64,000 nucleotides of DNA from the NCBI RefSeq assembly GCF_048403405.1, contig NZ_CP183129.1; one strand, given 5' to 3'. A program made the translations under genes and the position numbers. Under the pieces are notes generated by a model. That model was not told where the DNA came from. It saw nothing but the letters and a program-made list of their open reading frames with translations, and did no database searches. This DNA comes from Escherichia coli (GTDB lineage Bacteria > Pseudomonadota > Gammaproteobacteria > Enterobacterales > Enterobacteriaceae). This document shows, one piece after another, positions 2,624 to 50,401 of the stretch (position 1 is the first letter of the stretch; each line of letters opens with the position of its first letter).

Positions 2624-2659
2624 CAATAAAAAAGGCCCCCCGATTTGGGAGGCCTTATT
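2624..2659 (-). promoter_or_regulatory. pheA attenuator terminator hairpin (AGGCCTCCC...GGGGGGCCT followed by U-run) between pheL and pheA
   Basis: GC-rich inverted repeat with T-run on the minus strand, placed between leader peptide ORF and pheA start. Confidence 0.7.
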
Positions 2660-2702
2660 GTTCGTCTTCGCATTCTGTTTCACACGACGAAACGCCTCCC
2701 AT

Positions 2703-2750
2703 TCAGGGGAAGGTAAAAAAGAATGCGAAGAAAAACGGTGTGTGTTTCAT
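2703..2750 (-). CDS. pheL: pheA leader peptide, 15 aa, [15 protein letters not shown] (7 Phe codons)
   Basis: Minus-strand ATGAAACACACACCGTTTTTCTTCGCATTCTTTTTTACCTTCCCCTGA read directly; too short for the ORF track. Confidence 0.85.
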   Translation of the reverse strand: [15 protein letters not shown]

Positions 2751-2804
2751 GTTTGTTTCCTTAAGTGACTTCAGTACAGTACCCGTACTGTTTTCACGCT
2801 GTCA

Positions 2805-6046: not shown

Positions 6047-6108
6047 CCTAAAGAATCAAGACGATCCGGTACGCGTGATTTTCTTTTCACATTAATCTGG
6101 TCAATAAC

Positions 6109-6136
6109 CTTGAATAATTGAGGGATGACCTCATTT
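6109..6136 (+). promoter_or_regulatory. Candidate sigma-32 heat-shock promoter of clpB (-35 CTTGAA, -10-like GACCTCATTTA)
   Basis: Match to sigma-32 consensus CTTGAAA / CCCCATnT upstream of clpB; clpB is a known heat-shock gene. Confidence 0.5.
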
Positions 6137-6175
6137 AATCTCCAGTAGCAACTTTGATCCGTTATGGGAGGAGTT

Positions 6176-8749
6176 ATGCGTCTGGATCGTCTTACTAATA
6201 AATTCCAGCTTGCTCTTGCCGATGCCCAATCACTTGCACTCGGGCACGACAACCAATTCATCGAACCACTTCATTTAATGAGCGCCCTGCTGAATCAGGA
6301 AGGGGGTTCGGTTAGTCCTTTATTAACATCCGCTGGCATTAATGCTGGCCAGTTGCGCACAGATATCAATCAGGCATTAAATCGTTTACCGCAGGTTGAA
6401 GGTACTGGTGGTGATGTCCAGCCATCACAGGATCTGGTGCGCGTTCTTAATCTTTGCGACAAGCTGGCGCAAAAACGTGGTGATAACTTTATCTCGTCAG
6501 AACTGTTCGTTCTGGCGGCACTTGAGTCTCGCGGCACGCTGGCCGACATCCTGAAAGCAGCAGGGGCGACCACCGCCAACATTACTCAAGCGATTGAACA
6601 AATGCGTGGAGGTGAAAGCGTGAACGATCAAGGTGCTGAAGACCAACGTCAGGCTTTGAAAAAATATACCATCGACCTTACCGAACGAGCCGAACAAGGC
6701 AAACTTGATCCGGTGATTGGTCGTGATGAAGAAATTCGCCGTACCATTCAGGTACTGCAACGTCGTACTAAAAATAACCCGGTACTGATTGGTGAACCAG
6801 GCGTCGGTAAAACTGCCATCGTTGAAGGTCTGGCGCAGCGTATTATCAACGGCGAAGTGCCGGAAGGGTTGAAAGGCCGCCGCGTACTGGCGCTGGATAT
6901 GGGCGCGCTGGTGGCTGGGGCGAAATATCGCGGTGAGTTTGAAGAACGTTTAAAAGGCGTGCTTAACGATCTTGCCAAACAGGAAGGCAACGTCATCCTG
7001 TTTATCGACGAATTACATACCATGGTCGGCGCGGGTAAAGCCGATGGCGCAATGGACGCCGGAAACATGCTGAAACCGGCGCTGGCGCGTGGTGAATTGC
7101 ACTGCGTAGGTGCCACGACGCTTGACGAATATCGCCAGTACATCGAAAAAGATGCTGCGCTGGAACGTCGTTTCCAGAAAGTGTTTGTTGCCGAGCCTTC
7201 TGTTGAAGACACCATTGCTATTCTGCGTGGCTTAAAAGAACGTTACGAACTGCACCACCATGTGCAAATTACTGACCCGGCAATTGTTGCAGCGGCGACG
7301 TTGTCTCATCGCTACATTGCTGACCGTCAGCTGCCGGATAAAGCCATCGACCTGATCGATGAAGCAGCATCCAGCATTCGTATGCAGATTGACTCAAAAC
7401 CAGAAGAACTCGACCGACTCGATCGTCGTATCATCCAGCTCAAACTGGAACAACAGGCGTTAATGAAAGAGTCTGATGAAGCCAGTAAAAAACGCCTGGA
7501 TATGCTCAACGAAGAACTGAGCGACAAAGAACGTCAGTACTCCGAGTTAGAAGAAGAGTGGAAAGCAGAGAAAGCATCGCTTTCTGGTACACAGACCATT
7601 AAAGCGGAACTGGAACAGGCGAAAATCGCTATTGAACAGGCTCGCCGTGTGGGTGACCTGGCGCGGATGTCTGAACTGCAATACGGCAAAATCCCGGAAC
7701 TGGAAAAGCAACTGGAAGCCGCAACGCAGCTCGAAGGCAAAACTATGCGTCTGTTGCGTAATAAAGTGACCGACGCCGAAATTGCTGAAGTGCTGGCGCG
7801 TTGGACGGGGATTCCGGTTTCTCGCATGATGGAAAGCGAGCGCGAAAAACTGCTGCGTATGGAGCAAGAGCTGCACCATCGCGTTATTGGTCAGAACGAA
7901 GCGGTTGATGCGGTATCTAACGCTATTCGTCGTAGCCGTGCGGGGCTGGCGGATCCAAATCGCCCGATTGGTTCATTCCTGTTCCTCGGCCCAACGGGTG
8001 TGGGGAAAACTGAGCTTTGTAAGGCGCTGGCGAACTTTATGTTTGATAGCGACGAGGCGATGGTCCGTATCGATATGTCCGAGTTTATGGAGAAACATTC
8101 GGTGTCTCGTCTGGTTGGTGCGCCTCCGGGATATGTTGGTTATGAAGAAGGTGGCTACCTGACCGAAGCTGTGCGTCGTCGTCCGTATTCCGTTATCCTG
8201 CTGGATGAAGTGGAAAAAGCGCATCCGGATGTCTTCAACATTCTGTTGCAGGTACTGGATGATGGGCGTCTGACTGACGGGCAGGGGAGAACGGTCGACT
8301 TCCGTAATACGGTTGTCATTATGACCTCTAACCTCGGTTCCGATTTGATTCAGGAACGCTTCGGTGAACTGGATTATGCGCACATGAAAGAGCTGGTGCT
8401 CGGTGTGGTAAGCCATAACTTCCGTCCGGAATTCATTAACCGTATTGATGAAGTGGTGGTCTTCCATCCGCTGGGTGAACAGCACATTGCCTCGATTGCG
8501 CAGATTCAGTTGAAACGTCTGTACAAACGTCTGGAAGAACGTGGTTATGAAATCCACATTTCTGACGAGGCGCTGAAACTGCTGAGCGAGAACGGTTACG
8601 ATCCGGTCTATGGCGCACGTCCTCTGAAACGTGCAATTCAGCAGCAGATTGAAAACCCGCTGGCACAGCAAATACTGTCTGGTGAATTGGTTCCGGGTAA
8701 AGTGATTCGCCTGGAAGTTAATGAAGACCGGATTGTCGCCGTCCAGTAA
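6176..8749 (+). CDS. clpB: Disaggregase chaperone ClpB (Hsp100, two AAA+ modules), 857 aa
   Basis: ORF track 6164..8749; start moved to ATG 6176 ([10 protein letters not shown]) with GGGAGGAG SD upstream; two Walker A motifs GEPGVGKT and GPTGVGKT. Confidence 0.95.
6606..6622 (+). other. Internal translation start inside clpB (SD-like GGAGGTGA then GTG codon 149) producing N-terminally truncated ClpB
   Basis: In-frame GTG at 6620..6622 preceded by GGAGGTGA; internal start at Val149 is established for E. coli ClpB. Confidence 0.6.
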
Positions 8750-9192: not shown

Positions 9193-10734
<1,542 letters not shown>

Positions 10735-10819
10735 CCTTAAAGAACTGTGCTTTGCAGTGCTCACACAGATTGTCTGATAGAAAGTGAAAAGCAAGGCGTC
10801 TTGCGAAGCAGACTGATAC

Positions 10820-10895
10820 GTCCCCTTCGTCTAGAGGCCCAGGACACCGCCCTTTCACGGCGGTAACAGGGGTTCGAATCCCCTAGGGGACGCCA
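10820..10895 (+). tRNA. gltW: tRNA-Glu (spacer tRNA, 76 nt with encoded CCA)
   Basis: GTCCCCTTCGTCTAGAGGCCCAGGACACCGCCCTTTCACGGCGGTAACAGGGGTTCGAATCCCCTAGGGGACGCCA read directly. Confidence 0.95.
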
Positions 10896-11088
10896 CTTGC
10901 TGGTTTGTGAGTGAAAGTCGCCGACCTTAATATCTCAAAACTCATCTTCGGGTGATGTTTGAGATATTTGCTCTTTAAAAATCTGGATCAAGCTGAAAAT
11001 TGAAACACTGAACAACGAAAGTTGTTCGTGAGTCTCTCAAATTTTCGCAACACGATGATGGATCGAAAGAAACATCTTCGGGTTGTGA

Positions 11089-13992
<2,904 letters not shown>

Positions 13993-14085
13993 ACAACGCC
14001 GAAGATGTTTTGGCGGATTGAGAGAAGATTTTCAGCCTGATACAGATTAAATCAGAACGCAGAAGCGGTCTGATGAAACAGAATT

Positions 14086-14205
14086 TGCCTGGCGGCCTTA
14101 GCGCGGTGGTCCCACCTGATCCCATGCCGAACTCAGAAGTGAAACGCCGTAGCGCCGATGGTAGTGTGGGGTCTCCCCATGCGAGAGTAGGGAACTGCCA
14201 GGCAT
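14086..14205 (+). rRNA. rrfG: 5S ribosomal RNA (120 nt)
   Basis: TGCCTGGCGGCC...CTGCCAGGCAT read directly. Confidence 0.96.
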
Positions 14206-32803: not shown

Positions 32804-33759
32804 TGAAGCAACTTTGGTTTGCCATGTCATTAGTGACAGGTAGCCTGTTATTCTCTGCTAACGCCTCGGCCACTCCCGCGTCCGGGGCGTTATTACAGCA
32901 GATGAACCTGGCCAGTCAGTCACTGAATTACGAGCTGTCATTCATCAGCATCAATAAACAGGGTGTTGAGTCTCTGCGTTATCGACATGCACGCCTCGAT
33001 AACCGTCCTCTTGCACAATTGTTGCAAATGGATGGCCCGCGCCGGGAAGTGGTACAGCGCGGCAATGAAATCAGCTATTTTGAACCGGGACTTGAACCGT
33101 TCACGCTTAATGGCGATTACATTGTTGATTCTCTACCATCGCTCATCTATACCGATTTCAAACGCCTTTCTCCTTACTACGACTTTATCTCCGTCGGGCG
33201 CACGCGTATTGCTGATCGTCTTTGCGAAGTCATTCGTGTGGTTGCCCGAGATGGTACACGCTACAGCTACATCGTGTGGATGGACACCGAATCGAAATTA
33301 CCGATGCGGGTTGATCTCCTTGATCGCGATGGTGAAACGCTGGAACAATTTCGCGTGATTGCTTTTAATGTCAATCAGGATATCAGCAGCAGTATGCAGA
33401 CGTTGGCGAAGGCAAATTTGCCGCCGTTGCTTTCTGTTCCTGTAGGTGAAAAAGCTAAATTCAGCTGGACGCCAACCTGGTTGCCACAGGGTTTTAGCGA
33501 AGTTTCCAGTAGTCGACGTCCGCTACCGACGATGGACAACATGCCTATCGAATCACGTCTCTATTCCGACGGATTATTCAGCTTTTCGGTAAACGTTAAC
33601 CGCGCTACGCCATCGAGCACCGATCAGATGTTGCGCACCGGACGCAGAACCGTCAGTACAAGCGTACGTGATAACGCCGAAATCACCATTGTCGGTGAAC
33701 TGCCGCCGCAAACGGCGAAACGCATTGCCGAGAATATTAAGTTCGGGGCAGCGCAATGA
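32803..33759 (+). CDS. rseB: Sigma-E regulatory protein RseB (periplasmic), 318 aa
   Basis: ORF 32803..33759; signal peptide; start overlaps rseA stop (TAATG). Confidence 0.93.
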   Translation: MKQLWFAMSLVTGSLLFSANASATPASGALLQQMNLASQSLNYELSFISINKQGVESLRYRHARLDNRPLAQLLQMDGPRREVVQRGNEISYFEPGLEPFTLNGDYIVDSLPSLIYTDFKRLSPYYDFISVGRTRIADRLCEVIRVVARDGTRYSYIVWMDTESKLPMRVDLLDRDGETLEQFRVIAFNVNQDISSSMQTLAKANLPPLLSVPVGEKAKFSWTPTWLPQGFSEVSSSRRPLPTMDNMPIESRLYSDGLFSFSVNVNRATPSSTDQMLRTGRRTVSTSVRDNAEITIVGELPPQTAKRIAENIKFGAAQ

Positions 33760-34235
33760 TCAAAGAGTGGGCTACCGTCATCTCCTGGGAAAACGGGCAG
33801 GCGCTGGTTAGTTGTGATGTTAAAGCCTCATGCAGCAGCTGCGCTTCACGCGCCGGTTGCGGTAGCCGCGTGTTGAATAAACTTGGCCCGCAAACCACGC
33901 ATACCATTGTCGTACCCTGTGATGAGCCGTTAGTGCCGGGGCAAAAAGTAGAATTAGGAATCGCCGAAGGCAGCCTGCTTAGCTCCGCATTACTGGTTTA
34001 TATGTCGCCGTTGATGGGACTATTCCTCATCGCTTCACTATTTCAGCTACTCTTTGCTTCAGATATTGCAGCATTATGCGGTGCGATTCTCGGTGGCGTT
34101 GGTGGATTCCTGATTGCACGTGGCTGCTCTCGAAAGTTTGCTGCCCGGTCTGAATGGCAACCGATCATCTTAAGCGTGGCCTTGCCGCCTGGCCTTGTGC
34201 GATTTGAAACATCTTCGGAAGACGCGAGCCAGTGA
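33756..34235 (+). CDS. rseC: Sigma-E regulatory protein RseC, 159 aa
   Basis: ORF 33756..34235; overlaps rseB stop by 4 nt; membrane protein. Confidence 0.9.
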   Translation: MIKEWATVISWENGQALVSCDVKASCSSCASRAGCGSRVLNKLGPQTTHTIVVPCDEPLVPGQKVELGIAEGSLLSSALLVYMSPLMGLFLIASLFQLLFASDIAALCGAILGGVGGFLIARGCSRKFAARSEWQPIILSVALPPGLVRFETSSEDASQ

Positions 34236-34432
34236 TTTCACTGGCTTTGTTGCATTTTGCATAACAAATGCGAGGACGTTTCCAGATACCACAATCCATA
34301 CGGTATGAACATTTCCTCGCCTCAATGTTGTAGTGTAGAATGCGGCGTTTCTATTAATACAGACGTTAAGCTCAGAACAGCGACTTCTAAAAGCCTGGTT
34401 AACCGGGCATTAAGGCACAATAATCATACTTT

Positions 34433-36232
34433 ATGAAGAATATACGTAACTTTTCGATCATAGCTCACATTGACCACGGTAAATCGACGCTGTCTGACCG
34501 TATTATCCAGATCTGCGGTGGCCTGTCTGACCGTGAAATGGAGGCGCAGGTTCTCGATTCCATGGATCTTGAGCGTGAGCGTGGCATTACCATCAAAGCG
34601 CAAAGCGTGACGCTGGACTACAAAGCGTCTGACGGCGAAACCTATCAGCTTAACTTTATCGACACCCCGGGCCACGTTGACTTCTCTTATGAAGTTTCTC
34701 GTTCGCTGGCTGCCTGTGAAGGTGCATTGCTGGTGGTCGACGCCGGGCAGGGCGTAGAAGCGCAAACCCTGGCAAACTGCTACACCGCCATGGAAATGGA
34801 TCTCGAAGTGGTGCCGGTACTGAACAAGATTGACCTGCCGGCAGCCGATCCTGAACGCGTGGCGGAAGAAATTGAAGATATTGTCGGCATCGACGCCACC
34901 GACGCGGTGCGCTGTTCAGCGAAAACCGGCGTTGGCGTACAGGACGTTCTCGAACGTCTGGTGCGCGACATTCCGCCGCCGGAAGGCGATCCGGAAGGCC
35001 CGTTGCAGGCACTCATTATCGACTCCTGGTTCGACAACTACCTGGGCGTTGTTTCACTTATCCGTATTAAAAACGGCACCCTGCGTAAGGGCGACAAAGT
35101 GAAAGTCATGAGTACCGGGCAGACCTATAACGCCGACCGTCTGGGCATCTTCACGCCAAAACAGGTTGACCGTACTGAACTGAAATGCGGCGAAGTAGGC
35201 TGGCTGGTATGTGCGATTAAAGATATCCACGGCGCTCCAGTAGGCGATACCTTAACGCTGGCGCGTAATCCGGCAGAAAAGGCGCTGCCTGGCTTTAAGA
35301 AAGTCAAACCGCAGGTATACGCCGGTCTGTTCCCGGTAAGTTCCGACGACTATGAAGCCTTCCGTGATGCGCTGGGTAAACTCAGCCTGAACGATGCCTC
35401 ACTGTTCTATGAGCCGGAAAGCTCAAGCGCGCTGGGCTTTGGTTTCCGCTGCGGCTTCCTCGGTCTGCTGCACATGGAGATCATCCAGGAACGTCTGGAA
35501 CGTGAATACGATCTGGATCTGATTACCACTGCGCCGACCGTAGTGTATGAAGTTGAAACCACGTCAAGAGAAGTTATCTACGTCGACAGCCCATCCAAGC
35601 TGCCAGCGGTAAATAACATCTACGAACTGCGCGAGCCGATTGCAGAATGTCACATGCTGCTGCCGCAGGCATATCTCGGCAACGTTATTACGCTGTGCGT
35701 AGAAAAACGCGGCGTGCAGACCAATATGGTTTACCACGGTAATCAGGTGGCGCTGACGTACGAGATCCCGATGGCGGAAGTGGTGCTCGATTTCTTCGAT
35801 CGCCTGAAATCTACCTCGCGTGGTTATGCGTCTCTGGATTACAACTTCAAACGCTTCCAGGCGTCCGACATGGTACGTGTAGACGTATTAATCAACGGTG
35901 AACGTGTTGATGCGCTGGCGTTGATCACCCACCGTGATAATTCGCAAAACCGCGGTCGCGAGCTGGTGGAGAAGATGAAAGATCTAATCCCACGCCAGCA
36001 GTTTGATATCGCTATTCAGGCAGCGATTGGTACGCACATCATTGCGCGCTCCACCGTGAAACAGCTGCGTAAAAACGTACTGGCTAAATGTTATGGCGGC
36101 GATATCAGCCGTAAGAAAAAGCTGCTGCAGAAGCAGAAAGAAGGTAAGAAACGCATGAAGCAGATCGGTAACGTCGAGCTGCCGCAGGAAGCGTTCCTCG
36201 CCATTCTGCACGTCGGCAAAGACAACAAATAA
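34433..36232 (+). CDS. lepA: Elongation factor 4 (LepA) GTPase, 599 aa
   Basis: ORF 34433..36232; [10 protein letters not shown]1 motif and conserved C-terminus. Confidence 0.95.
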
Positions 36233-37269: not shown

Positions 37270-37367
37270 TATTTATGAGATAAATCTCCCGTGGCTAACG
37301 ACATCCCCCGTCGTTGTGTATAGAATATTCCCCCGAAGTTTAAGGTTGGCACCTCCAGGTTGCCACG

Positions 37368-37461
37368 GCACACGAAACAGCGTTGGTCCCCATATACCGG
37401 TAAACTGAAACTGCAGCGAAGCAGTTAGCAGAACCATGTATATCAGGTCTGTTTCGTGTGC
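37368..37461 (+). promoter_or_regulatory. rnc 5' leader long-range stem (GCACACGAAACAG pairs with CTGTTTCGTGTGC); candidate RNase III autoregulatory processing structure
   Basis: 13-nt perfect complementarity read directly; rnc leader cleavage by RNase III is established. Confidence 0.55.
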
Positions 37462-37464
37462 TGA

Positions 37465-39077
<1,613 letters not shown>

Positions 39078-39828: not shown

Positions 39829-40560
39829 ATGGCTGAATTACTGTTAGGCGTCAACATTGACCATATTGCAACGCTGCGTAACGCACGCGGTACTGCTTAC
39901 CCGGATCCGGTGCAGGCGGCGTTTATTGCTGAGCAGGCGGGAGCGGACGGCATTACCGTGCATTTACGTGAAGATCGCCGCCACATTACTGACCGTGATG
40001 TGCGCATCCTGCGTCAGACGCTGGATACCCGCATGAATCTGGAGATGGCGGTGACCGAAGAGATGCTGGCGATCGCCGTTGAGACGAAGCCACATTTTTG
40101 CTGTCTGGTACCGGAAAAGCGTCAGGAAGTAACAACCGAAGGCGGCCTGGACGTCGCAGGGCAGCGTGACAAAATGCGCGATGCCTGTAAACGTCTGGCG
40201 GAGGCCGGGATCCAGGTTTCTCTGTTTATCGACGCCGATGAAGGGCAGATCAAAGCTGCGGCAGAGGTTGGCGCACCGTTTATCGAGATCCACACCGGTT
40301 GCTATGCTGATGCCAAAACTGACGCCGAACAGGCGCAAGAGCTGGCGCGTATCGCCAAAGCCGCGACCTTTGCCGCTAGTCTCGGTCTGAAAGTTAACGC
40401 TGGTCACGGTCTGACCTATCACAACGTGAAAGCTATTGCCGCCATCCCTGAGATGCATGAACTGAATATCGGTCATGCCATTATTGGTCGTGCAGTGATG
40501 ACCGGACTGAAAGATGCGGTGGCAGAAATGAAGCGTTTGATGCTGGAAGCGCGTGGCTAA
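39829..40560 (+). CDS. pdxJ: Pyridoxine 5'-phosphate synthase, 243 aa
   Basis: ORF track 39814..40560; start moved to ATG 39829 ([21 protein letters not shown]). Confidence 0.94.
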
Positions 40561-40940
40561 TGGCAATATTAGGTTTAGGTACGGATATTGTGGAGATCGC
40601 TCGCATTGAAGCGGTGATCACCCGATCCGGTGAGCGCCTGGCACGCCGCGTATTAAGCGATAACGAATGGGAAATTTGGAAAACGCACCACCAGCCGGTG
40701 CGTTTTCTGGCGAAACGCTTTGCCGTAAAAGAAGCCGCAGCAAAAGCGTTTGGCACCGGGATCCGCAATGGTCTGGCGTTTAATCAGTTTGAAGTATTTA
40801 ACGATGAGCTTGGTAAGCCACGGCTGCGACTGTGGGGCGAGGCATTAAAACTGGCGGAAAAGCTCGGCGTTGTAAATATGCATGTAACGCTGGCAGATGA
40901 ACGCCACTATGCTTGCGCCACGGTAATTATTGAAAGTTAA
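40560..40940 (+). CDS. acpS: Holo-[acyl-carrier-protein] synthase, 126 aa
   Basis: ORF 40560..40940; start overlaps pdxJ stop (TAATG); translation. Confidence 0.94.
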
Positions 40941-40963
40941 AATAATACCGTTCTCTTTAAAAA

Positions 40964-41004
40964 GTAAAACCCCCGAACTGGTAAGGAACAGGGGGTTTAC
41001 TTTA
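40964..41004 (+). terminator. Intrinsic terminator after acpS (GTAAAACCCCC...GGGGGTTTAC plus T-rich tail)
   Basis: Inverted repeat read directly. Confidence 0.7.
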
Positions 41005-41359
41005 CAACTTTAATTTTGTGCAGCACGCACCCTCAACAAGAGCGATTATGGATCAGGGCGGTTATCTTTTACAAGCAACTTGCAATCTTTAGCATAAAAA
41101 CTCGAGCCTTTACGAAGAAAACAATATTGATGGAAAGATTAACGTGACCGCCAATTCGGAAGTACATTAAAATTGGCTTCGTTATTGGCGATTTTGCTGT
41201 GCTTTATACCATGCCACAGAATTCCCCCATTGAAACGAGTGGTGTCGTCAAAGCTCTGGTGTGGAGTGCAGCATGCACCCTCAATAACTCGCACGTTCAG
41301 TTTTGGGGAGATGTAAGGGCTAATCTGAACGGCTGCATTCCTTGTTTAAGGAAAAACGA

Positions 41360-41440
41360 ATGACTGATTGCCGATACCTTATTAAACGGGTCATCAAAAT
41401 CATCATTGCTGTTTTACAGCTGATCCTTCTGTTCTTATAA
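41360..41440 (+). CDS. shoB: Small hydrophobic toxic peptide of the shoB-ohsC type I toxin-antitoxin locus, 26 aa (MTDCRYLIKRVIKIIIAVLQLILLFL)
   Basis: ATGACTGATTGCCGATACCTTATTAAACGGGTCATCAAAATCATCATTGCTGTTTTACAGCTGATCCTTCTGTTCTTATAA read directly; below the ORF-track size cutoff; location between acpS and yfhL. Confidence 0.8.
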   Translation: MTDCRYLIKRVIKIIIAVLQLILLFL

Positions 41441-41634
41441 CATAAGGAAACGTACTTAAGGCGCGTCAGGTTAACCAGCCAGGCGCGCCTTTAATAATTA
41501 TAAATAAGTGCTTATACAGATAGTGTTATCATTCATGAAATAATTGATATTTATGATCACATCACGAAAATAAATATAAGAACCTGAAGGCTCACACTAT
41601 AAAGTCAACAATAGTCTACTCCAGGAGCAGAATA

Positions 41635-41931
<297 letters not shown>

Positions 41932-50216: not shown

Positions 50217-50401
50217 AGTGGCTCATTCACCGACTTATGTCAGCCCCTTCGGGACGTGCTACATAAAATACGAATGACGCACAACAAGGTGCCTGCCGTC
50301 CAACTTCTGATATCAGCGTAGCTATATCAACCATCGGGCGAAACGTCGAGTTAGGCACCGCCTTATTCCATAACAAAGCCGGGTAATTCCCGGCTTTGTT
50401 G
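50217..50401 (+). ncRNA. glmY: Small regulatory RNA GlmY (controls glmS via GlmZ/RapZ)
   Basis: Begins AGTGGCTCATTCACCGACTTATGTCAGCCCCTTCGGGACG, ends at intrinsic terminator AAAGCCGGGTAATTCCCGGCTTTGTTGT; position between purL and glrK; ends approximate. Confidence 0.8.

What the first reader, a model, noticed from the sequence alone, without database searches (positions are those of the whole stretch)
41005..41634. Type I toxin-antitoxin locus shoB-ohsC between acpS and yfhL, invisible to the ORF track
The roughly 630-bp gap between acpS and yfhL looks empty in the six-frame track but contains an 81-nt ORF (41360..41440) encoding the 26-aa hydrophobic peptide MTDCRYLIKRVIKIIIAVLQLILLFL, which matches the ShoB toxin as I remember it. 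The divergent antisense sRNA OhsC should lie upstream on the opposite strand, but I cannot place its ends from sequence alone.
Basis: partly seen in the sequence, partly recalled or inferred. Interest (0 to 1): 0.5.

Follow-up and report, generated by a model that had tools for sequence, protein, structure and literature searches.

The report
Known shoB–ohsC toxin–antitoxin locus

Summary
Confirmed and already known. The 81-nt ORF at 41360..41440 (+) encodes MTDCRYLIKRVIKIIIAVLQLILLFL. This is identical to K-12 ShoB (b4687) and is annotated as shoB in a RefSeq genome that is 100% identical over the region. The antitoxin OhsC is not at 41150..41300. Rfam RF02495 (99.2 bits, threshold 50) and the K-12 annotation place it at 41037→40959 (-). 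That position straddles the left edge of the finding, and OhsC shares a two-way terminator hairpin with acpS. The two genes diverge and do not overlap. The first 20 nt of OhsC pair in trans with 41266..41285 in the shoB 5' UTR (18 Watson-Crick pairs plus 2 G·U, about -40 kcal/mol). This is the only such site in the 64 kb, and it ends 74 nt upstream of the AUG. The Shine-Dalgarno sequence is predicted to be locked in a UUCCUU/AAGGAA hairpin. The first ~30 nt of the mRNA are predicted to mask the OhsC site. Both predictions fit the published account: an inactive ~320-nt transcript, an active processed ~280-nt form, and a proposed tisB/istR-1-like standby mechanism. Side results: E. coli carries two co-varying ohsC/shoB pairing alleles (about 68% and 31% of 5,426 genomes), and one genome is a mismatched recombinant. 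An upstream ORF ending in ATGA shows no coding constraint.

The parts
40959..41037 (-). ohsC gene: OhsC antitoxin sRNA, 79 nt, with its 5' end at 41037
   Evidence: Rfam RF02495 gives 99.2 bits (gathering score 50), E=1.6e-16, over 41037..40961. It aligns end to end with K-12 ohsC b4608, 79 nt.
41018..41037 (-). OhsC 5' pairing region (seed), GUUGAGGGUGCGUGCUGCAC
   Evidence: RNAduplex pairs it with 41266-41285 at -39.7 to -41 kcal/mol. The literature reports 19 nt of complementarity between the OhsC 5' end and the shoB 5' UTR (PMC3919570).
40961..41003 (.). Near-palindromic terminator hairpin that can serve both OhsC (-) and acpS (+)
   Evidence: Supported by the Rfam structure line and the OhsC minimum-energy fold. 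A weak + strand Rfam hit (25.5 bits, 40936..41003) reflects the palindrome. The same palindrome is noted in PMC11264685.
41045..41074 (-). ohsC promoter: -35 TTGTAA (41074-41069), 18-nt spacer, -10 CATAAT (41050-41045)
   Evidence: Found by the consensus scan. It matches the elements listed in PMC11264685 Table 2. The -10 box lies 7 nt upstream of the Rfam/K-12 5' end.
41144..41173 (+). shoB promoter: -35 GTGACC (41144-41149), 18-nt spacer, -10 TAAAAT (41168-41173)
   Evidence: Found by the consensus scan. It matches PMC11264685 Table 2.
41181..41497 (+). shoB primary transcript, about 317 nt; both ends are inferred, not mapped
   Evidence: The start is inferred from the -10 box and the end from the terminator hairpin. 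The length agrees with the ~320-nt full-length RNA in PMC5397157. The fold gives -102.1 kcal/mol, z = -3.9 against shuffles.
41181..41211 (+). 5' segment predicted to mask the OhsC site: 41181-88 pairs with 41281-88 and 41195-41211 pairs with 41257-73. The published +40 processing would remove it.
   Evidence: Seen in both the minimum-energy and centroid structures. 99.5% of cells are paired in 11 Escherichia sequences, but there are no two-sided changes. The 5' half of the target is 0.19 unpaired in the full-length RNA and 0.44 in the +40 form.
41266..41285 (+). OhsC target site in the shoB 5' UTR, GUGCAGCAUGCACCCUCAAU. It ends 62 nt before the SD and 74 nt before the AUG.
   Evidence: All 20 positions pair (18 Watson-Crick, 2 G·U). 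Apart from the ohsC gene itself, it is the only site in the 64-kb window with 20 pairs; the next best has 18 pairs, 6 of them G·U. It co-varies with the OhsC 5' end between allele classes.
41338..41353 (+). Anti-SD/SD hairpin: UUCCUU (41338-43), GUUU loop, AAGGAA (41348-53)
   Evidence: Present in the minimum-energy fold. The SD has an unpaired probability of 0.06-0.07 in the full-length and +40 forms. It is invariant in 10 of 11 Escherichia sequences. AAGGAA is the published RBS.
41360..41440 (+). shoB CDS: 26-aa hydrophobic toxin ShoB
   Evidence: Supported. The peptide is identical to K-12 ShoB and RefSeq annotates shoB here. pN/pS is 0.19. GRAVY is 1.59 overall and 2.94 for residues 11-26.
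41458..41491 (+). shoB terminator hairpin, followed by a short U-poor tail
   Evidence: Present in the minimum-energy fold. The K-12 allele carries paired changes in the stem, C-G to U-A and A/A to C-G, read directly from alignment A2. The simple terminator scan did not flag it because the T run is too short.
41199..41363 (+). Upstream reading frame (GTG 41199 or ATG 41211) whose TGA overlaps the shoB ATG as ATGA. It is probably not coding.
   Evidence: The frame is open in all 11 Escherichia sequences. However, pN/pS is about 1.0 (0.65 without the target block), the ATG is lost in L009, and both start codons lie upstream of the +40 processing site.

Best explanation
[quoted passage not shown] It encodes the 26-residue hydrophobic peptide ShoB, which depolarises the inner membrane when overproduced. 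ohsC is transcribed leftward from TTGTAA/CATAAT, about 143 bp away from the inferred shoB start, as a 79-nt RNA that ends in the hairpin that can also terminate acpS. The genes do not overlap. The first 20 nt of OhsC pair in trans with 41266-41285 of the shoB leader, far upstream of the ribosome binding site. The most likely mechanism has four steps, each inferred from predicted structure and from published work on K-12. (1) The primary transcript is inert, because its 5' end masks the OhsC/standby region and the SD sits in a UUCCUU/AAGGAA hairpin. (2) Removing about 40 nt from the 5' end opens the upstream region. (3) 30S subunits load there as standby ribosomes and slide to the transiently open SD. 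(4) OhsC occupies that region, blocks loading, and creates an RNase III substrate. The identity of the locus is shown directly. The standby step is inferred.
For: Identity: the peptide is identical to K-12 ShoB, and RefSeq annotates shoB in a 100%-identical genome. The Rfam ohsC_RNA hit scores 99.2 bits against a gathering score of 50. Synteny recO-pdxJ-acpS / shoB / yfhL-yfhH matches K-12. Both published promoters are present. The locus occurs in 5,424 of 5,426 complete E. coli genomes.
Pairing: a unique 20-bp duplex of about -40 kcal/mol. Class A and class B alleles change 6-7 bases at both sites together. Cognate duplexes score -40 and -33 kcal/mol, against -20 to -21.5 for non-cognate pairs. 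Of 5,426 genomes, 0 carry A-ohsC with a B-target and 1 carries B-ohsC with an A-target.
Mechanism: the SD unpaired probability is 0.07. The 5' half of the target is 0.19 unpaired in the full-length RNA and 0.44 in the +40 form. The leader has 98% column identity across Escherichia species apart from the target block.
Literature: only the ~280-nt processed form is translated (PMC5397157). PMC7708055 describes the '+40' form and proposes a standby model. A putative RNase III cleavage site lies in the duplex region (PMC6212723). Overexpression depolarised 98% of cells (PMC8309996).
Against: Nothing argues against the identity of the locus. The mechanism is less secure. No transcript ends were mapped in this strain. 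The leader structure is a thermodynamic prediction with no two-sided covariation, because the leader is too invariant to provide any. Predicted opening of the target after processing is modest (0.32 to 0.46 overall). The papers I could read propose standby loading for shoB but do not demonstrate it. One natural strain with mismatched ohsC and shoB alleles is viable, so OhsC pairing may not be essential under all conditions.
Confidence: 0.9

Rival explanations
1. OhsC represses shoB mainly by triggering RNase III cleavage and decay of the mRNA, not by competing with standby ribosomes.
For: A 20-bp perfect or near-perfect duplex is a plausible RNase III substrate. A transcriptome-wide study detected a putative RNase III cleavage site in the shoB/OhsC duplex region (PMC6212723).
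Against: In the related tisB/istR-1 and zorO/orzO systems, cleavage accompanies repression, and translational block at an upstream site is the proposed primary step. The sequestered SD means some upstream entry site is needed in any case. The two mechanisms are not exclusive.
Confidence: 0.25
2. shoB is translated by coupling to the upstream reading frame (GTG 41199 or ATG 41211 to TGA 41361-63, overlapping the shoB ATG as ATGA), as hok is coupled to mok. On this view OhsC acts on that leader ORF.
For: The frame is open for 71 codons in all 11 Escherichia sequences, and its stop overlaps the shoB start. [quoted passage not shown]
Against: pN/pS of the frame is about 1.0 (0.65 without the target block), against 0.19 for shoB. 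The ATG is replaced by ATA in L009. Neither start has an obvious SD. Both starts lie in the first ~40 nt, which are removed in the only form reported to be translated. The OhsC site lies 55-67 nt downstream of the starts, not over them. The high nucleotide conservation of the leader alone explains why the frame stays open.
Confidence: 0.04
3. The ORF is a chance short ORF in an intergenic region that only holds promoters and terminators.
For: Short ORFs of this size are abundant by chance: 30 of at least 20 aa in 1.7 kb. NCBIfam has no HMM for ShoB.
Against: The peptide is identical to an experimentally characterised toxin. The ORF shows a purifying-selection signature. The RBS is reported as conserved in 100% of loci in a survey of over 2,000 E. 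coli strains, and the 26-codon ORF length in more than 99.9%. A cognate antitoxin RNA lies next to it.
Confidence: 0.01

Closest known systems
shoB-ohsC (ryfB/ryfC) of E. coli K-12 MG1655 (b4687/b4608)
   Same: It has the same flanking genes, an identical ShoB peptide, the same promoters, RBS and target site, and a 79-nt OhsC. The window is about 95-96% identical to K-12-type alleles over 41006-41510.
   Different: OhsC carries G instead of A at its nt 12 (window 41026 is C, K-12 has T). The duplex therefore has 18 Watson-Crick pairs plus 2 G·U instead of 19 plus 1, at -39.7 versus -40.1 kcal/mol. Other differences are three changes in the OhsC terminator, a different allele of the shoB terminator stem, one synonymous change in shoB (CTT versus CTG), and a strongly diverged shoB-yfhL spacer at 41510-41634.
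tisB/istR-1 (E. coli)
   Same: The genes are divergent and non-overlapping. The 5' end of the sRNA pairs about 20 nt within a long toxin 5' UTR, far upstream of a sequestered RBS. The primary transcript is inactive and a 5'-processed form is active. There is an upstream ORF (tisA) with no evidence of translation.
   Different: There is no sequence homology. tisB is LexA/SOS-controlled, whereas shoB/ohsC is reported to be CpxR-responsive. Standby loading is demonstrated for tisB but only proposed for shoB.
zorO/orzO and dinQ/agrB (E. coli)
   Same: They share the divergent architecture, pairing distal to the RBS, and activation by 5' processing. zor/orz has paralogous pairs with discriminating pairing regions, which is analogous to the two shoB/ohsC allele classes found here.
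   Different: The peptides and RNAs are unrelated. zor/orz specificity classes coexist as tandem copies in one genome, whereas the shoB/ohsC classes are alternative alleles at a single locus.
hok/sok-mok (plasmid R1 and chromosomal copies)
   Same: It is a type I system encoding a small membrane toxin with a structured, processed mRNA, and a leader reading frame overlaps the toxin start.
   Different: Sok is a true cis-antisense RNA that covers the mok translation start, and hok translation is coupled to mok. Here the sRNA is trans-encoded and the upstream frame shows no coding constraint.

Membership tests
ShoB/OhsC type I toxin-antitoxin system | Toxin peptide homologous to ShoB (26 aa, hydrophobic C-terminal helix) | tested here: met
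   The peptide is 100% identical to K-12 ShoB. RefSeq annotates WP_000128776.1 'type I toxin-antitoxin system toxin ShoB' on identical DNA. GRAVY of residues 11-26 is 2.94.
ShoB/OhsC type I toxin-antitoxin system | OhsC sRNA (Rfam RF02495) encoded next to the toxin gene | tested here: met
   The hit scores 99.2 bits against a gathering score of 50 and covers the full-length model 1-77 at 41037..40961 (-).
ShoB/OhsC type I toxin-antitoxin system | Divergent, non-overlapping genes in the acpS-yfhL intergenic region | tested here: met
   The OhsC 5' end is at 41037 and the shoB -10 box at 41168-73, leaving a spacer of about 143 bp. The flanking genes match K-12.
ShoB/OhsC type I toxin-antitoxin system | About 19 nt of complementarity between the OhsC 5' end and the shoB 5' UTR | tested here: met
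   There are 20 contiguous pairs (18 Watson-Crick, 2 G·U) at -39.7 kcal/mol, unique in the window. The literature value is 19 nt.
ShoB/OhsC type I toxin-antitoxin system | Published promoter and RBS elements (shoB GTGACC/TAAAAT, ohsC TTGTAA/CATAAT, RBS AAGGAA) | tested here: met
   All are present at the expected spacing.
ShoB/OhsC type I toxin-antitoxin system | Toxicity and membrane depolarisation on overexpression, rescued by OhsC | not testable with these tools
   This is reported in the literature for the identical K-12 peptide only (PMC5397157, PMC8309996).
ShoB/OhsC type I toxin-antitoxin system | Both RNAs actually transcribed (~320/280-nt shoB RNAs, short OhsC RNA) | not testable with these tools
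   No expression data exist for this strain. Transcription is inferred from intact promoters and terminators.
Standby-site regulated type I toxins (tisB/istR-1 type) | sRNA binds far upstream of the RBS, not over it | tested here: met
   The target 41266-41285 ends 62 nt before the SD and 74 nt before the AUG.
Standby-site regulated type I toxins (tisB/istR-1 type) | RBS sequestered in stable structure | tested here: met
   This is a prediction only. The SD unpaired probability is 0.06-0.07 and the AUG 0.01, with a UUCCUU/AAGGAA hairpin.
Standby-site regulated type I toxins (tisB/istR-1 type) | 5' processing converts an inert primary transcript into a translatable one by exposing the upstream site | tested here: inconclusive
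   The predicted fold has nt 1-31 pairing with both ends of the target region, and removing 40 nt raises the unpaired probability of the target's 5' half from 0.19 to 0.44. There is no two-sided covariation to support the fold. Processing is known from the literature only.
Standby-site regulated type I toxins (tisB/istR-1 type) | 30S/S1 binding at the upstream single-stranded site (with a 5' pseudoknot) that the sRNA competes with | not tested
   This is only hypothesised for shoB in PMC7708055. I made no pseudoknot prediction.
Leader-ORF coupled type I toxins (hok/mok/sok type) | A translated leader ORF overlapping the toxin start, with the antitoxin covering its initiation region | tested here: not met
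   An overlapping frame exists (ATGA). However, pN/pS is about 1, its ATG is lost in L009, its starts are removed by +40 processing, and the OhsC site lies 55-67 nt downstream of them.

The most novel reading that the evidence does not exclude
The shoB/ohsC locus exists in E. coli as two co-evolved recognition alleles. Class A is carried by this window and K-12 (block YGCACCCU) and accounts for about 68% of complete genomes. Class B is carried by O157:H7, SF-173 and E50 (CACGAUUC in the gene, CUCGAUUC in the target) and accounts for about 31%. The two classes differ at 6-7 bases in both the OhsC 5' end and the shoB target. If the prediction holds, each antitoxin represses only its own allele, because predicted cognate duplexes score -40 and -33 kcal/mol against about -20 for non-cognate pairs. 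Mixed combinations are almost absent: 0 and 1 of 5,426 genomes. This would be natural compensatory evidence for the pairing, which a 2024 survey said had not yet been validated for shoB-ohsC. It would also make the single recombinant strain, Z1323CEC0015, a natural 'unrepressed shoB' case. The covariation and the linkage are shown here. The lack of cross-repression is inferred from energies only.
Probability: 0.55. Interest if true: 0.3.

Novelty: already known. Interest (0 to 1): 0.1.

Why it matters
For this window it matters only as an annotation point. A real 26-codon toxin gene and its 79-nt antitoxin RNA sit in a gap that ORF-length filters leave empty, and the sRNA shares its terminator with acpS. 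The locus has been characterised since 2005-2008 and is annotated in K-12 and by RefSeq. The modest added value lies in the population-level side result. The OhsC seed and its target co-vary as two allele classes with almost no mixed genotypes. This supports the proposed trans pairing in vivo and points to simple cross-repression experiments on how pairing specificity evolves in a single-copy type I system.

Tried and rejected
1. NCBIfam scan of the 26-aa peptide found no family. Identity therefore rests on exact sequence identity and RefSeq/K-12 annotation. Pfam could not be used because the peptide is under 30 aa.

2. I tried to place the two published CpxR boxes (CB1, CB2) with the GTAAA-N5-GTAAA consensus at up to 2 mismatches. 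No match fell in the promoter spacer 41038-41180. The one local match, 41193-41207 (-), is not above chance: 68 matches in the window against 49 ± 7 expected. The boxes are left unplaced.

3. The primary papers (Fozo 2008, PMC2597788; Kawano 2005, PMC549416) are not held. Their results are cited second-hand through later open-access papers.

4. Covariation test of the predicted leader structure: 99.5% of cells pair, but there are no two-sided changes and the result is no better than shuffles. The structure is compatible with the data but unproven.

5. A full-length OhsC-mRNA RNAduplex suggested a 76-nt interaction at -57.5 kcal/mol. I rejected it as an artefact of ignoring intramolecular structure, since the OhsC terminator would have to unfold. 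Only the 20-nt seed is retained.

6. The upstream-ORF coupling idea was tested and judged unlikely.

7. A literature search for 'ohsC' plus 'compensatory' returned only neuroscience 'OHSC' papers. One malformed search was also made.

8. That stretch is the shoB promoter and leader, and the only minus-strand ORFs and features there are chance matches.

Full report
**Observation**

The window is E. coli chromosome. The interval 41005-41634 is 100% identical to strain CFSAN061763, and 5,424 of 5,426 complete E. coli genomes have a match. RefSeq annotation on the identical genome maps onto the window as follows:
- acpS at 40560..40940 (+)
- shoB at 41360..41440 (+)
- yfhL at 41635..41895 (-)

This is identical to K-12 ShoB, b4687. 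The only coding difference from K-12 is a synonymous CTT/CTG.

A 26-codon ORF is not significant by itself, since 30 ORFs of at least 20 aa overlap this 1.7 kb. The case rests on other evidence:
- exact identity to a characterised toxin
- the published RBS AAGGAA at 41348-41353
- 7 synonymous against 4 conservative replacement changes across 11 Escherichia sequences, pN/pS about 0.19
- the antitoxin gene next door

The true intergenic gap is 40941..41634 (694 bp). The finding's left boundary cuts through ohsC.

**Where OhsC is**

Rfam RF02495 (ohsC_RNA) matches 41037..40961 on the minus strand at 99.2 bits (gathering score 50, E=1.6e-16) over the full model. K-12 ohsC (b4608, 79 nt) aligns end to end with 41037→40959.

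The published ohsC promoter is in place 7 nt upstream: TTGTAA at 41074-69, an 18-nt spacer, then CATAAT at 41050-45. The shoB promoter is GTGACC at 41144-49, an 18-nt spacer, then TAAAAT at 41168-73.

That stretch is the shoB promoter and leader.

The OhsC terminator hairpin (40961-41003) is nearly palindromic and lies 18-20 nt after the acpS stop codon. It can terminate both genes. The palindrome explains the weak plus-strand Rfam hit of 25.5 bits, and PMC11264685 notes it as well.

**Anatomy of the regulation**

The genes diverge without overlapping. About 143 bp separate the two inferred 5' ends.

The DNA carries a 20-nt direct repeat:
- 41018-41037, GTGCAGCACGCACCCTCAAC, the template of the OhsC 5' end
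- 41266-41285, GTGCAGCATGCACCCTCAAT, in the shoB leader

OhsC nt 1-20 can therefore pair with the leader over 20 contiguous positions (18 Watson-Crick and 2 G·U) at -39.7 to -41 kcal/mol. No other site in the 64 kb comes close; the next best has 18 pairs, 6 of them G·U. K-12 has 19 Watson-Crick pairs plus 1 G·U, matching the '19 nt' in the literature. This strain has C instead of T at 41026, which puts a G·U in the middle of the duplex at negligible energetic cost.

The target ends 62 nt before the SD and 74 nt before the AUG, so OhsC cannot act by occluding the RBS directly.

**Predicted mRNA structure**

I folded an RNA from about 41181, inferred from the -10 box, to about 41497, just after the terminator hairpin at 41458-41491. 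It gives -102.1 kcal/mol, z = -3.9 against dinucleotide shuffles.
- Nt 1-8 pair with 41281-41288.
- Nt 15-31 pair with 41257-41273.

The mRNA's own 5' end thus covers both ends of the OhsC site and resembles the OhsC seed.

The SD is in a 6-bp UUCCUU/AAGGAA hairpin (41338-41353), with an unpaired probability of 0.07. The AUG is also paired, at 0.01. Removing the first 40 nt raises the unpaired probability of the 5' half of the target from 0.19 to 0.44 and leaves the SD closed.

This agrees with published K-12 data:
- There is a ~320-nt full-length RNA and a ~280-nt processed RNA, and only the processed form is translated (PMC5397157).
- PMC7708055 describes a '+40' form and proposes a standby model like tisB/istR-1.
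- A putative RNase III cleavage site lies in the duplex region (PMC6212723).
- ShoB overproduction depolarises the membrane within minutes (PMC8309996).
- CpxR is reported to bind and regulate the shared promoter region (PMC9600279). I could not place its boxes by consensus.

The structure is compatible with 11 Escherichia sequences, with 99.5% of cells paired. It has no two-sided covariation because the leader is 98% invariant, so it remains a prediction.

**Comparative evidence for the pairing**

An alignment of the window with K-12 and divergent E. coli alleles shows two allele classes:
- Class A (window, K-12, TKEC21-59) has YGCACCCT at both sites.
- Class B (E50, SF-173, O157:H7) has CACGATTC in ohsC and CTCGATTC in the shoB leader.

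Six to seven bases change at both sites together. The class B duplex is left with one U·U mismatch.

| Pairing | Predicted duplex energy (kcal/mol) |
|---|---|
| A with A | about -40 |
| B with B | -32.9 |
| A with B | -20 to -21.5 |

Counts among 5,426 complete genomes:

| Sequence queried | Genomes with a match |
|---|---|
| Class A target | 3,692 |
| Class B target | 1,676 |
| Class B ohsC 5' end | 1,696 |

The class B share is consistent with the 33% TTGTAC -35 allele reported in PMC11264685.

I then ran chimeric queries. A-ohsC with a B-target found no genome. B-ohsC with an A-target found one, Z1323CEC0015. Alignment shows it is a true recombinant with the breakpoint between the two promoters and an intact shoB.

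This is strong natural support for the trans pairing. PMC11264685 noted the variability but stated that pairing potential had not yet been validated for shoB-ohsC.

**Distribution**

A degenerate pattern for the ShoB N-terminus found the ORF only in Escherichia among about 100,000 species-representative genomes. The hits were E. albertii, E. whittamii, two unnamed Escherichia species and two E. coli-labelled representatives. This agrees with Fozo et al. [quoted passage not shown] Because the pattern required exact matches, more diverged homologues would be missed.

**The upstream frame**

A reading frame from GTG 41199 or ATG 41211 ends in a TGA that overlaps the shoB ATG as ATGA. It stays open in all 11 sequences. 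Several results argue against it being a gene:
- Its pN/pS is about 1.0, or 0.65 without the target block.
- The ATG is ATA in one lineage.
- Both starts would be removed by the +40 processing.
- OhsC binds 55-67 nt downstream of the starts.

I treat it as a tisA-like non-coding frame kept open by RNA-level conservation, with about a 4% chance that it matters.

**Verdict**

The locus is the known, annotated shoB-ohsC system, so interest is low. The most likely mechanism is trans-pairing of the OhsC 5' end to an upstream standby/entry region of a processed, RBS-sequestered mRNA, plus RNase III cleavage. That mechanism is inferred from predicted structure, from allele covariation and from published K-12 work. 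It was not demonstrated here.

Noticed in passing
window 41018-41037 and 41266-41285; L004, L005 (class B alleles): E. coli has two co-varying allele classes of the OhsC seed and shoB target. Class A is about 68% of genomes and class B about 31%. They differ at 6-7 bases at both sites. Predicted non-cognate duplexes are about half as stable as cognate ones. The variable block (mRNA nt 94-100) falls in an unpaired internal loop of the predicted full-length fold.
   Followed up: yes
L013 (NZ_CP148423.1, E. coli Z1323CEC0015) 352-852: This is the only genome of 5,426 that combines a class B ohsC with a class A shoB leader. The recombination breakpoint lies between the two promoters and the ShoB ORF is intact. 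The antitoxin and target are predicted to be mismatched at about -20 kcal/mol.
   Followed up: partly
L006 (NZ_CP135595.1, E. coli GDSC2227PM) 789-1486: An IS1A element is inserted in the shoB region, and only the 3' part of shoB remains matchable. It is an example of the roughly 1% 'interrupted' loci reported in the literature.
   Followed up: partly
window 41510-41634: The spacer between the shoB terminator and the yfhL stop is hypervariable among strains. Most genomes align only up to about 41510, and the window is only about 60% identical to K-12 here. It contains two terminator-like hairpins on the minus strand (41631-41615 and 41593-41580), presumably for yfhL.
   Followed up: partly
window 41181-41360: The shoB leader has 98% column identity across Escherichia species, including E. 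albertii. It is more conserved than the synonymous sites of shoB itself, except for the 8-nt OhsC-target block.
   Followed up: yes
window 41181-41211 vs 41257-41288: The 5' end of the shoB mRNA (GUUAUUGG...UGCUGUGC) resembles the OhsC seed. It is predicted to pair with both ends of the OhsC target, acting as a built-in 'cis-antitoxin' that +40 processing would remove.
   Followed up: partly
window 41199-41363: An upstream reading frame has a TGA that overlaps the shoB ATG as ATGA. It is open in all 11 Escherichia sequences but shows no coding constraint, much like tisA.
   Followed up: yes
window 41206 and 41026: This strain carries two minor changes that turn Watson-Crick pairs into G·U. T at 41206 affects leader helix pair 27-81, which is C-G in the other 10 sequences. 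C at 41026 puts a G·U in the OhsC-target duplex where K-12 has A-U.
   Followed up: partly
window 2626-2751, 6057-6195, 9193-14203, 33720-34551, 37335-37549, 50217-50364: There are other Rfam hits elsewhere in the window: the Phe leader, RyfD, an rrn operon (16S-tRNA-23S-5S, with StyR-44), AsrC antisense of rseC, the rncO leader and GlmY. All are expected for this part of the E. coli chromosome.
   Followed up: no
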